Virus record (IMG/VR): IMGVR_UViG_3300028027_000001
Length of the DNA: 64,000 nt
Origin: a virus
Reading direction: 5' to 3' (one strand)
Of this stretch, positions 7,100-55,308 are shown one piece after another. Positions within the stretch are counted from its first letter, which is position 1; every line of letters begins with the position of its first letter. A program made the translations under genes and the position numbers. The notes below the pieces were generated by a model that saw only the letters and a list, made by a program, of their open reading frames with translations, had not been told where the DNA came from and did not search any database.

Positions 7100-7207
7100 T
7101 AGTTAGGACAGGATTCGAACCTGTGCAGGGTGTCATCCCCCGGAGCATCTAAAGTTTTGACGTACTTATTATTGAGCTCCTGCATTACCACTTTCTGCCA
7201 TCTAACT
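7100..7207 (-). ncRNA. tRNA-like RNA A (29-nt expanded anticodon loop, long variable arm)
   Basis: AGTTAGA/CCTAACT-A acceptor, D-loop with GG, GGAGC/GCTCC stem, T arm ACAGG-TTCGAAT-CCTGT. Confidence 0.7.
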
Positions 7208-51977: not shown

Positions 51978-52067
51978 GGTTATACATATATGAAACATAT
52001 GGCAGAATCGAACTCCTCTTGAGAGATTACAAATCAAACACAATGCCTGCAAAGCAGGAAGAAATTG

Positions 52068-52140: not shown

Positions 52141-52146
52141 AATAAG

Positions 52147-52233
52147 CGGAAAAGGTAGGATTCAAACCTACGGAACCCTTGCGAGTTCGCCGCATTTCAA
52201 GTGCGGTGCATTAGATCGCTCTGCCACTTTTCC
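52147..52233 (-). tRNA. tRNA-Ser(UGA)
   Basis: GGAAAAG/CTTTTCC-G; CCGCA-CTTGAAA-TGCGG; long variable arm. Confidence 0.92.
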
Positions 52234-52235
52234 AG

Positions 52236-52460
52236 TTCCCATTTAACTAAGCCAAATGGGGAAAATGCTTTGAGTAAAACTACCTACTAGGCAGCAATAC
52301 TCATATGGTTTGTGTTGCCGTTTAAAGCGTTAAATAATTCTCAATATATCGTACCTCACATGCAATCAAAGCCAAAAACACGCCCATATGTGATGTATTG
52401 TCGGTTTGTGTGTGGACGTGCCGAGAGTCGAACTCGGGTCTTACATGTTTTCCAATATAA
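52236..52460 (-). ncRNA. ssrA: Circularly permuted (two-piece) tmRNA, tag GNTNHMSIAA
   Basis: Acceptor piece ACATGTAA-GAC-CCGAG-TTCGACT-CTCGG-CACGTCC-A (52448-52413) precedes the 5' end GGGCGTG (52385); G3:U70 pair; TTGCATGT/ACATGTAA helix; tag ORF 52319-52287; outer ends approximate. Confidence 0.88.
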
Positions 52461-52476
52461 ATCAACGAACTATTCG

Positions 52477-52548
52477 TATTCGATACGGGAATCGAACCCG
52501 TGCCTCTGCCGTGAAAGGGCAGCGTGTTAACCGCTTCACTAATCGAAC
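52477..52548 (-). tRNA. tRNA-Glu(UUC)
   Basis: CTGCC-CTTTCAC-GGCAG; T arm ACGGG-TTCGATT-CCCGT. Confidence 0.92.
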
Positions 52549-54350: not shown

Positions 54351-54601
54351 CGCAATGATTTGTTTAGGTTTTGGGTAATTGTTTGTATATGTTCGGGAAG
54401 TGTTTTGTGTATGTTTACTACAGCTTCTCCTGCTTTTTTAAATATTATTGAATACTGAAATGAAGGATTGAATGTATGAAGTTTATTGAATTCTTTGTCG
54501 AGGCATTTAATAGCATCTGGTTCATCTATGGTCATGCCTGGGAATGGTTTAACTAGGTGGGATTTCCATTTAGTATTGAATTCGTTTAATGTCATCTCCA
54601 A
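54347..54601 (-). CDS. Hypothetical protein
   Basis: ORF packing. Confidence 0.65.
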   Translation of the reverse strand: MEMTLNEFNTKWKSHLVKPFPGMTIDEPDAIKCLDKEFNKLHTFNPSFQYSIIFKKAGEAVVNIHKTLPEHIQTITQNLNKSLR

Positions 54602-55308
54602 ATAATTTCGTTAGTGATGTGGTTCCAATCAAAGGTAAATGGTAAATTAGCATATGAATATCGCTCGTTTAATACAGCTGCGTTAAAGTGGTGGGTATGC
54701 CCATCGTAGTAGTAACCATGACCCGAATGAATGTGCCCACAAACATGTATTTTTGGTCGGATTACATCGATACGTTCACGCAATAATTCACAACCTAAAT
54801 GAGTGTCGCGACGGTATTGAGTTGTATCGTTGTATCCCCAAGCAGGACCATGTGTGATTAGTATATCTGTGTTGTCAGGTATAGCGGCCCATTTTTGCTT
54901 GAGTTCCTCTCCATTGCGTGGAAGGTTGAAAGCCCAATCGAAGAAAGCGGGTTGATGTGGTGAGCCATAAATGCGAATATTGTTTTCTGGCTCATCTCCA
55001 TTATGCCCATCATAGTATAACACACAAGTATCGTCTTCAAGATAGTCTATGGTTTTATATCCTGTTAACATACCTTGCATTGTTTCCGGGTGGTTTTGCA
55101 TAACGCGGTCGTGATTACCAGCAATGAATATTTTTGTTTCATATGTGGTAATAGCGTCAAACCATTCAAAAAATTGTTTTGCTTCTGTTTTGCTATAACC
55201 ATCGGTCATAAAATCACCAGCATGGATGAGAATATTTCCTTCTCCAAGATCACCATTTAATTGGTTGTGTTTTGCGTGAGTATCACTCAATAGTGTAATT
55301 CTATACAT
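54592..55308 (-). CDS. Calcineurin-like metallophosphoesterase
   Basis: SDTH, HAGD, AGNHD, ITHGP, CGHIH. Confidence 0.92.
   Translation of the reverse strand: MYRITLLSDTHAKHNQLNGDLGEGNILIHAGDFMTDGYSKTEAKQFFEWFDAITTYETKIFIAGNHDRVMQNHPETMQGMLTGYKTIDYLEDDTCVLYYDGHNGDEPENNIRIYGSPHQPAFFDWAFNLPRNGEELKQKWAAIPDNTDILITHGPAWGYNDTTQYRRDTHLGCELLRERIDVIRPKIHVCGHIHSGHGYYYDGHTHHFNAAVLNERYSYANLPFTFDWNHITNEIIWR

What the first reader, a model, noticed from the sequence alone, without database searches (positions are those of the whole stretch)
52236..52460. Minimal, circularly permuted two-piece tmRNA in a phage
Seen: the T arm and 3' acceptor strand (CACGTCC-A, 52420-52413) come before the 5' strand GGGCGTG (52385-52379), separated by a 27-nt spacer. 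The strands pair fully with the alanine identity pair G3:U70. Helix 2 (TTGCATGT/ACATGTAA) is present. The resume context TAAAC-GGC opens GNTNHMSIAA followed by tandem TAG stops. The whole gene fits in about 240 nt between tRNA-Glu and tRNA-Ser, leaving little room for the usual pseudoknots. Known: permuted tmRNAs occur in alphaproteobacteria and some cyanobacteria and betaproteobacteria, while Bacteroidota tmRNAs are one-piece as far as I know. Inference: an independent permutation and extreme reduction that lets the phage run its own ribosome rescue or redirect proteolysis, perhaps against tRNA- or mRNA-cleaving defences.
Basis: partly seen in the sequence, partly recalled or inferred. Interest (0 to 1): 0.8.

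Follow-up and report, generated by a model that had tools for sequence, protein, structure and literature searches.

The report
Small two-piece tmRNA gene in phage
A large phage that probably infects Bacteroidota carries, inside a tRNA cluster, a real but unusually small circularly permuted ribosome-rescue RNA (tmRNA) gene; it belongs to a little-studied phage lineage whose crAss-like members are already annotated in RefSeq, so it is a solid find but not a new kind of thing.

Summary
On the minus strand at about 52476-52234 lies a circularly permuted tmRNA gene. ARAGORN calls it with tag GNTNHMSIAA**, and Rfam RF04321 scores 53.5 bits against a cut-off of 47. Two related phage contigs carry the same gene (tag GNQNHMSIAA**), with six double-sided compensatory pairs among the three copies.

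It is not a one-off. Its tRNA-like domain, TAAAC|GRC-AAY resume context and G1-to-resume distance (64-68 nt) match a family on crAss-like contigs. Four RefSeq Crassvirales genomes already annotate that element as tmRNA. Two-piece tmRNAs in phages are also published (PMC9004378).

What is unusual:
- The family has no room for pseudoknot 1. A long three-part helix 2 ends 12 nt before the resume codon.
- The predicted mature size is about 215 nt, against 347-383 nt in 30 Bacteroidota host tmRNAs, all one-piece.
- Real tRNAs abut both ends, which suggests the tRNA-processing enzymes release both pieces.
- No SmpB is found in the window.

"Independent permutation" is not shown. Most likely this is a working tmRNA that depends on the host. 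The scan also noted this same stretch in an overlapping window. Interest is moderate.

The parts
52477..52548 (-). tRNA-Glu (UUC). Its 3' end directly abuts the start of the tmRNA acceptor piece.
   Evidence: ARAGORN. Rfam tRNA, 69 bits.
52413..52476 (-). Predicted acceptor piece, about 63 nt before CCA addition. It holds the 3' strands of helix 2 (52475-52467, 52459-52453, 52448-52441), the T arm (52437-52421), the 3' acceptor strand CACGTCC (52420-52414) and discriminator A (52413). CCA is not encoded: CAC follows.
   Evidence: Sequence. Alignment to the Rfam model. Consensus fold with compensatory pairs. Covariation over 22 distinct cores. The ends are inferred from the flanking tRNA, not measured.
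52386..52412 (-). 27-nt intervening sequence, expected to be removed between the 3' and 5' acceptor strands.
   Evidence: Sequence. It is 26 nt and nearly identical in L235 and L236. It is 15-174 nt long in the crAss-type relatives.
52234..52385 (-). Predicted coding piece, 152 nt. It holds the 5' acceptor strand GGGCGTG (52385-52379), the D-loop analogue TTTTTGGCTTTGA (52378-52366), the 5' strands of helix 2 (52365-52358, 52351-52345, 52340-52332), a 12-nt single-stranded leader (52331-52320), the tag frame, helix 5 and a terminal hairpin.
   Evidence: The 3' end is inferred from the tRNA-Ser 5' end four nt downstream.
52284..52319 (-). Tag reading frame GGC AAC ACA AAC CAT ATG AGT ATT GCT GCC TAG TAG, giving (A)GNTNHMSIAA and two stop codons.
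   Evidence: ARAGORN. The relatives encode GNQNHMSIAA** in the same frame, with one synonymous change and one T-to-Q change. The resume context AAAC|GRC AAY is shared with the crAss-type genes.
52271..52303 (-). Helix 5. The outer stem is TGAG/CTCA. The inner stem is GCTGCCT/AGGTAGT, a 7-bp hairpin that overlaps both TAG stop codons.
   Evidence: Consensus fold and single-sequence folds. The inner stem does not vary, so there is no covariation test.
52238..52260 (-). Terminal 10-bp hairpin CCCATTTGGC-TTA-GTTAAATGGG. An alternative fold is a small H-type pseudoknot, with AAGC (52269-52266) pairing to GCTT in the loop.
   Evidence: The sequence is the same in all three copies, so the choice between hairpin and pseudoknot is untested.
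52146..52233 (-). tRNA-Ser (UGA). Its 5' end lies 4 nt after the tmRNA terminal hairpin.
   Evidence: ARAGORN. Rfam tRNA, 55 bits.

Best explanation
This is a working phage-encoded two-piece tmRNA (ssrA) gene.

Proposed mechanism:
1. It is transcribed as part of the run tRNA-Glu, tmRNA, tRNA-Ser, tRNA-Thr.
2. The host tRNA-processing enzymes (RNase P at 5' ends; RNase Z or exonucleases at 3' ends) cut the precursor. This releases the flanking tRNAs, discards the 27-nt spacer, and leaves an acceptor piece of about 63 nt and a coding piece of about 152 nt.
3. The host CCA-adding enzyme adds CCA.
4. The two pieces stay joined through the 7-bp acceptor stem and a 24-bp, three-part helix 2.
5. Host AlaRS charges the RNA with alanine, using the G3:U70 pair and A73. 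Host SmpB and EF-Tu deliver it to stalled ribosomes.
6. Translation resumes at GGC and appends (A)GNTNHMSIAA. The IAA end resembles the LAA end that ClpX reads, so the tagged product is probably degraded.

Shown here: the gene anatomy, its conservation and covariation, the tag frame, the absence of a phage SmpB in the window, and membership of a family shared with crAss-like phages.

Inferred: the processing sites, charging with alanine, dependence on host factors, proteolysis of tagged products, and the benefit to the phage. A plausible benefit is keeping ribosomes free late in infection, when host RNA synthesis has stopped and mRNAs are being cut.
For: - ARAGORN calls a permuted tmRNA with tag GNTNHMSIAA**.
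- RF04321 scores 53.5 bits against a cut-off of 47 and matches the T arm, acceptor stem, D-loop analogue and helix 2.
- L235 and L236, which are 88% and 82% identical in a neighbouring protein, hold the same gene in the same tRNA context with tag GNQNHMSIAA**.
- The consensus fold of the three copies has 6 pairs changed on both sides and kept: 3 in the T stem, 2 in helix 2a and 1 in the middle of helix 2. Several further changes on one side also keep the pairing.
- Across 22 distinct cores, every T-stem and helix-2a position except the invariant closing T-stem G-C shows 2-5 types of standard pair.
- The G1-to-resume distance is fixed at 64-68 nt across the ARAGORN-called tag types (61 nt by my own parse in L164), and the resume context AAAC|GRC AAY is shared. 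This fits the known role of the five upstream nucleotides in choosing the frame (PMC3968760).
- The stop codons sit in helix 5, as in standard tmRNAs.
- Real tRNAs, or tRNA-like minihelices in the crAss type, abut the ends.
- RNase P and tRNase Z processing of permuted precursors is the accepted model (PMC3985003).
Against: - There is no experimental evidence of expression, cleavage, charging or tagging.
- PK1 is required for tagging in E. coli unless a stable hairpin replaces it (PMC3968760). PK1 is missing here, with only 12 nt between helix 2 and the resume codon.
- No SmpB gene is found in the window, so activity depends on the host SmpB accepting a tRNA-like domain that differs from the host's. 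The phage has GGGCGUG and UUUGA; the hosts have GGGG(G/A)UG and UUCGA.
- With only three copies, the tag, helix 5 and the terminal hairpin are almost invariant and give no covariation test.
- One synonymous change, AGT to AGC, falls just outside the 4-bp outer stem of helix 5 in the consensus fold. It would break one pair only in the 6-bp version that the single-sequence folds give.
- The rest of the phage genome could not be searched.
Confidence: 0.75

Rival explanations
1. It is an SmpB decoy. The RNA folds into a tRNA-like domain that soaks up host SmpB, or occupies stalled ribosomes without productive tagging. This would shut down host trans-translation instead of supplying it. The mycobacteriophage DS6A RNA, which has a tRNA-like domain only, has been suggested to act this way.
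For: [quoted passage not shown]
- PK1 is absent.
- The phage encodes no SmpB in the window.
Against: - A decoy needs no tag frame. Yet the frame, its resume context, its distance from G1, the AA end and the stop codons in helix 5 are conserved from this phage to the crAss-like phages.
- Between the close relatives the tag frame shows one synonymous and one conservative codon change.
Confidence: 0.1
2. It tags proteins for a different fate. The RNA does rescue ribosomes, but its non-host tag (GNTNHMSIAA, against host tags such as GENNYALAA or ANYNYALAA) sends products to a different protease, or spares them, to the phage's benefit. It might also counter defences that cut tRNA or mRNA.
For: - The tags of this family differ consistently from the host tags sampled.
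- The crAss-type tags end in NVA or HVA rather than LAA.
Against: - The window's tag ends in IAA, close to the LAA that ClpX reads (PMC3968760). Ordinary degradation is therefore the simpler reading.
- Nothing in the window links the gene to a defence or counter-defence system.
Confidence: 0.1
3. It is a false positive or a relic: a chance arrangement of tRNA fragments inside a tRNA cluster, or a decaying gene with no function.
For: - ARAGORN does make such errors in phage tRNA clusters. Its 'permuted tmRNA' in Cellulophaga phage phi4:1 spans three tRNAs and has no Rfam support.
- The ARAGORN call in the window also overlaps the flanking tRNAs.
Against: - The core lies wholly between the tRNAs.
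- Rfam passes its cut-off independently.
- The pattern is absent from 100 shuffles.
- Compensatory changes are seen in three copies and across 22 distinct cores.
Confidence: 0.03

Closest known systems
Permuted tmRNA genes of crAss-like phages. Examples are NC_055901 cr130_1, NC_055895, NC_055899 and NC_055902, where RefSeq annotates them as 'transfer-messenger RNA, SsrA', plus about 30 IMG/VR contigs of 50-105 kb.
   Same: - The acceptor stem is identical (GGGCGUG/CACGUCC, with G3:U70).
- Both have the UUUGA form of the D-loop analogue.
- Helix 2a is 8 bp, placed next to GAC and the T arm.
- The G1-to-resume distance is 64-68 nt, and the resume context AAAC|GRC AAY is shared.
- Tags start G/D-N and end in A.
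- There is no room for PK1.
- CCA is not encoded.
- A tRNA-like structure follows directly after the coding piece.
   Different: - The window's gene has a shorter spacer (27 nt against mostly 62-174 nt).
- It lacks the extra hairpin in the acceptor piece.
- Its tag is shorter and ends in the canonical AA (10 residues against 12-15, which mostly end in VA).
- It has real tRNAs on both sides rather than a minihelix.
- It sits in an unrelated, roughly 170-kb phage with a T4-like DNA polymerase.
Two-piece tmRNAs of Alphaproteobacteria, Betaproteobacteria and Cyanobacteria (Rfam RF01849, RF01850, RF01851), together with the phage copies reported for Melnitz, pelagiphages and cyanophages (PMC9004378).
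   Same: - The gene order is circularly permuted.
- The tRNA-like domain is assembled from two RNAs.
- The number of pseudoknots is reduced.
- A tag frame is followed by helix 5.
- The generic model RF04321 is passed.
   Different: - Those forms typically keep PK1 and PK2 (PMC3985003). This one has no PK1.
- The best lineage model, beta, reaches only 32 bits against a cut-off of 84, and covers only the tRNA-like domain.
- The host phylum uses one-piece tmRNA.
Standard one-piece tmRNA of Bacteroidota, the presumed hosts.
   Same: The overall logic is the same: an alanine-type acceptor with G3:U70, a T arm, and a short N-rich tag ending in AA.
   Different: - The host genes are one-piece and 347-383 nt long.
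- The G1-to-resume distance is 89-102 nt.
- The acceptor is GGGG(G/A)UG and the D-loop analogue is UUCGAC.
- The tags are GENNYALAA, ANYNYALAA, DNNYSYRLAA and the like.
Mycobacteriophage tmRNAs (the Bxz1 group) and the DS6A RNA that consists of a tRNA-like domain only.
   Same: They are phage-borne ssrA genes without a phage smpB noted (PMC4131195).
   Different: Those are one-piece forms, or lack a tag frame altogether.

Membership tests
tmRNA (ssrA), any form | A tRNA-like domain with a 7-bp acceptor stem, the alanine identity pair G3:U70 and discriminator A73. | tested here: met
   GGGCGTG (52385-52379) pairs with CACGTCC (52420-52414), position 3 is a G:U pair, and A lies at 52413.
tmRNA (ssrA), any form | A T arm with a GTTCGANTC-type loop, and a D-loop analogue (UGG..UUYGA) between the acceptor stem and helix 2. 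| tested here: met
   The T arm is CCGAG-TTCGACT-CTCGG and the D-loop analogue is TTTTTGGCTTTGA. Both align to the Rfam consensus. The T stem covaries.
tmRNA (ssrA), any form | A short tag frame with a Gly or Ala resume codon, a hydrophobic end, and a stop codon in helix 5. | tested here: met
   GGC opens GNTNHMSIAA, and TAG TAG lies in a 7-bp hairpin. The frame is kept in the relatives. A glycine resume codon is a known minority case (PMC3968760).
tmRNA (ssrA), any form | Pseudoknot 1 between helix 2 and the resume codon. | tested here: not met
   Only 12 nt separate the last helix-2 pair from GGC. The G1-to-resume distance is 66 nt, against 89-102 nt in host tmRNAs. PK1 can be replaced by a hairpin in E. 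coli, so it may not be strictly defining.
tmRNA (ssrA), any form | An SmpB partner is available. | tested here: inconclusive
   No SmpB is found in the window (tblastn and phmmer with E. coli SmpB, E > 1). None is found in cr130_1, L235, L236 or a 455-kb phage (PF01668). The host SmpB is presumed. The remainder of this genome was not searchable.
tmRNA (ssrA), any form | Charging with alanine and tagging activity. | not testable with these tools
   This needs aminoacylation assays and mass spectrometry.
Permuted (two-piece) tmRNA, Rfam RF04321 | The 3' half of the tRNA-like domain lies upstream of the 5' half, with an intervening sequence, and the score is above the gathering score. | tested here: met
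   53.5 bits against 47. ARAGORN marks the gene as tmRNA*. The spacer is 27 nt.
Permuted (two-piece) tmRNA, Rfam RF04321 | The precursor is cleaved into two stable RNAs. | not testable with these tools
   This is inferred from the flanking tRNAs and the accepted RNase P / tRNase Z model. It needs Northern blots or RACE.
Alpha-, beta- or cyanobacterial two-piece lineages (RF01849, RF01850, RF01851) | A match to a lineage-specific model above its gathering score, covering the mRNA-like part as well. | tested here: not met
   The best is beta_tmRNA at 32.1 bits against 84, over model positions 67-176 only. The control is weak: three other permuted viral tmRNAs also stayed below 84 bits, although they matched the full model length.
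Bacteroidota-phage permuted tmRNA group (crAss type; defined here) | An acceptor stem of GGGCGUG/CACGUCC, a UUUGA D-loop analogue, a G1-to-resume distance of 61-68 nt, the resume context AAAC|GRC AAY, and no PK1. | tested here: met
   The tag of L164 (GNTSYVMDYTGIAA) bridges the window's tag and the crAss-type tags.

The most novel reading that the evidence does not exclude
The window's gene and the crAss-type genes together form a further lineage of two-piece tmRNA, outside the three known bacterial lineages (and the mitochondrial form). It is carried only by phages of Bacteroidota, whose own tmRNA is one-piece. It arose by a separate permutation event and has been exchanged between unrelated phage groups (Crassvirales and a roughly 170-kb phage with a T4-like polymerase). 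It works without PK1, with a long helix 2 taking over that role. That would make the roughly 215-nt window form one of the smallest tmRNAs that still encodes a tag.
Probability: 0.4. Interest if true: 0.6.

Novelty: new member of a known kind. Interest (0 to 1): 0.42.

Why it matters
If it is active, this RNA shows how far a tagging tmRNA can be reduced. It would have a tRNA-like domain, one long helix, a 12-nt leader, a 10-codon frame, helix 5 and one hairpin. That bears on what PK1 actually does.

It also points to an unstudied group of tmRNAs spread among phages of Bacteroidota, including abundant gut crAss-like phages. This raises the question of why lytic phages invest in ribosome rescue.

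For annotation there are two practical lessons. Permuted tmRNA calls inside phage tRNA clusters can be real, as here. They can also be spurious, as in Cellulophaga phage phi4:1. They need a second line of evidence.

Tried and rejected
- My first IMG/VR pattern was off by one in the T loop and found nothing. The corrected pattern worked.
- An exact search for the window's own T stem found nothing in IMG/VR.
- The single metagenome scan added no new window-type copy, only the L236 contig again.
- blastn of the gene against GenBank phages found only tRNA matches and a 36-nt match to cr130_1.
- Cellulophaga phage phi4:1, listed as 'Permuted' in Table S1 of PMC9004378, is not a precedent. That call spans three tRNAs and has no Rfam support.
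- The phage GroEL gave no host signal. It is 50-53% identical to many phyla. The host call therefore rests on one T9SS type-A sorting domain and on the kinship with crAss-like phage tmRNAs.
- The lineage-specific Rfam models proved a weak test, because other permuted viral tmRNAs also fall below their cut-offs.
- A 7-bp version of the pseudoknot downstream of the tag was dropped because it would leave a 1-nt loop. Only a pseudoknot of 4 bp plus 7 bp is sterically plausible, and it is untested.
- The sigma-70 promoter scan is not informative for Bacteroidota-type promoters.
- The papers PMC516066 and PMC16621 are not held.
- The supplementary tables of the 2025 tmRNA database paper, as held, contain no phage entries. 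I could not check whether this form is in that database.
- No whole genome is held for the window.

Full report
**What is there**

On the minus strand between tRNA-Glu (52477-52548) and tRNA-Ser (52146-52233) lie 242 nt that read, 5' to 3':
- three stretches that form the 3' side of a long helix;
- GAC and a T arm, CCGAG-TTCGACT-CTCGG;
- the 3' acceptor strand CACGTCC and discriminator A (52420-52413);
- a 27-nt spacer;
- the 5' acceptor strand GGGCGTG (52385-52379);
- a D-loop analogue, TTTTTGGCTTTGA;
- the 5' side of the long helix;
- a 12-nt leader ending in TAAAC;
- the frame GGC...GCC TAG TAG (52319-52284);
- a hairpin that overlaps both stop codons;
- a final 10-bp hairpin.

**Is it more than chance?**

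ARAGORN calls a permuted tmRNA with tag GNTNHMSIAA**. Rfam's generic permuted model RF04321 scores 53.5 bits against a gathering score of 47, E 1.3e-7 for the whole window. Its alignment covers the T arm, acceptor stem, D-loop analogue and helix 2. A pattern that demands the permuted order matches once in the window and never in 100 shuffles. The precursor folds 3 sd better than shuffles.

Caution was warranted. ARAGORN's 'permuted tmRNA' in the tRNA cluster of Cellulophaga phage phi4:1, which a published table lists as permuted, spans three real tRNAs and has no Rfam support. The decisive evidence is therefore comparative.

**Relatives of the window's own form**

I searched IMG/VR with the neighbouring metallophosphatase (54592-55308). 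This gave 17 related phage loci. The two closest, L235 (88% identical) and L236 (82%), hold the same gene in the same tRNA setting, with tag GNQNHMSIAA**. A more distant relative, L243 (66%), has tRNA-Gln in that slot instead. The tmRNA is therefore a recent gain or swap in this tRNA cluster.

The three copies give a consensus fold with these parts:
- the acceptor stem;
- the T arm;
- a helix 2 of 8 + 7 + 9 bp;
- helix 5;
- the terminal hairpin.

Six pairs changed on both sides and were kept, and several further one-sided changes also preserve pairing. The tag frame differs by one synonymous change and one T-to-Q change. L235 and L236 encode CCA after the discriminator. The window has CAC there, which amounts to one extra A.

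**A wider family**

A degenerate pattern over the T arm and 3' acceptor strand found more than 119 IMG/VR loci. About 45 are standard tmRNAs, about 15 look like tRNA-Ala, and 34 have the permuted order.

Most of the permuted ones sit on contigs of 50-105 kb. Their tags include (G/D)NVNNIVDYTNVA, (G/D)NYNVVDYTHVA and GNINVVDYTGLQEAA. They include cr130_1, a RefSeq Crassvirales genome.

They share these features with the window:
- the identical acceptor stem;
- the UUUGA form of the D-loop analogue;
- an 8-bp helix 2a in the same place;
- the resume context AAAC|GRC AAY;
- a G1-to-resume distance of 64-68 nt (61 nt in L164).

The tag of L164, GNTSYVMDYTGIAA, bridges the window's tag and the crAss-type tags. 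Across 22 distinct cores, every T-stem and helix-2a position except the invariant closing T-stem G-C shows 2-5 different standard pair types. In the crAss type a tRNA-like minihelix follows the coding piece. In the window, tRNA-Ser does.

**What is unusual**

- The G1-to-resume distance is 64-68 nt in this family. It is 89-102 nt in 30 Bacteroidota host tmRNAs, 75-167 nt in standard tmRNAs on viral contigs, and 129 nt in another permuted type.
- Together with the 12-nt leader, this leaves no room for PK1. Two-piece tmRNAs typically keep PK1 and PK2 (PMC3985003). PK1 is needed for tagging in E. coli unless a stable hairpin replaces it (PMC3968760). Here the long helix 2 may do that job. That is an inference.
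- Downstream of the tag there is at most one small pseudoknot: 4 bp plus 7 bp in the window type, which does not vary and so is untested. A candidate at the matching place in the crAss type shows one compensatory change.
- The predicted mature size is 63 + 152 = 215 nt before CCA, against 347-383 nt in the hosts.

**Host side**

One window protein carries a T9SS type-A sorting domain (TIGR04183, E 3.9e-8). This points to a Bacteroidota host. The phage GroEL gave no signal.

In a sample of Bacteroidota genomes:
- 56 of 61 had a full-length standard tmRNA;
- all 30 that I examined were one-piece, with acceptor GGGG(G/A)UG, UUCGAC, and tags such as GENNYALAA;
- none of 151 exceeded the permuted model's cut-off.

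The phage gene is therefore not a copy of a host gene.

No SmpB is detectable in the window. None is found in cr130_1's complete genome, in L235 or L236, or in a 455-kb phage that carries another permuted type. The RNA must rely on the host's SmpB.

**Prior knowledge**

Phage ssrA genes have been listed since 2014 (PMC4131195). A 2022 paper counted 53 two-piece calls among 18,146 phage genomes and analysed one of them (PMC9004378). Four RefSeq Crassvirales genomes annotate the homologous element as tmRNA.

I found no paper in the searchable library that discusses a permuted tmRNA family in crAss-like or other Bacteroidota phages. I could not check the 2025 tmRNA database tables.

Lineage models do not place the family. 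The best is beta, at 32 bits against 84, over the tRNA-like domain only. That test is weak, because other permuted viral tmRNAs also miss those cut-offs.

**Verdict**

This is a real permuted tmRNA gene, most likely functional and dependent on the host. It is a new member of a catalogued but undescribed Bacteroidota-phage group. The loss of PK1 and the small size are the features worth following up. 'Independent permutation' and the anti-defence role remain untested.

Noticed in passing
L002 4800-5461 (Cellulophaga phage phi4:1, NC_021788): Table S1 of PMC9004378 lists a 'Permuted' tmRNA for this phage. It looks like an ARAGORN false positive: it spans tRNA-Tyr, tRNA-Ser and tRNA-Asn, has a 24-residue 'tag', and has no RF04321 match.
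   Followed up: yes
L235 and L236, aligned to window 52413-52409: The two relatives encode CCA after the discriminator (CACGTCCA-CCA). The window has CAC there, one extra A, so its 3' end would need the CCA-adding enzyme.
   Followed up: partly
L243 11255-11620: In a 66%-identical relative, the slot between tRNA-Glu and tRNA-Ser holds tRNA-Gln instead of the tmRNA. The tRNA cluster swaps its contents between close phages.
   Followed up: partly
L125, L001 and other crAss-type loci: A tRNA-like minihelix (acceptor stem plus T arm, no anticodon arm) directly follows the crAss-type permuted tmRNA genes. The spacer of cr130_1 contains a further T-arm-like hairpin. These may be processing signals.
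   Followed up: no
L164 2601-7626; L125 211-934: These crAss-like contigs carry RAGATH-6, RAGATH-7 and RAGATH-9, three Hatchet ribozymes, a hammerhead and twister-P1 matches within a few kb of the tmRNA gene.
   Followed up: no
L122 and L141 (IMG/VR contigs): These contigs hold very small standard-form tmRNAs of 244 nt, with tags AKQNQFALAA and ANKNQFALAA. Strong size reduction is therefore not limited to the permuted form.
   Followed up: no
window 7100-7207 (-): A weak tRNA match (33.8 bits, 108 nt long) lies in a region where earlier notes describe tRNA-shaped RNAs with replaced anticodon arms.
   Followed up: no
window 52022-52066 (-): Just after tRNA-Thr there is a fragment that repeats part of its anticodon arm and T loop.
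   Followed up: no
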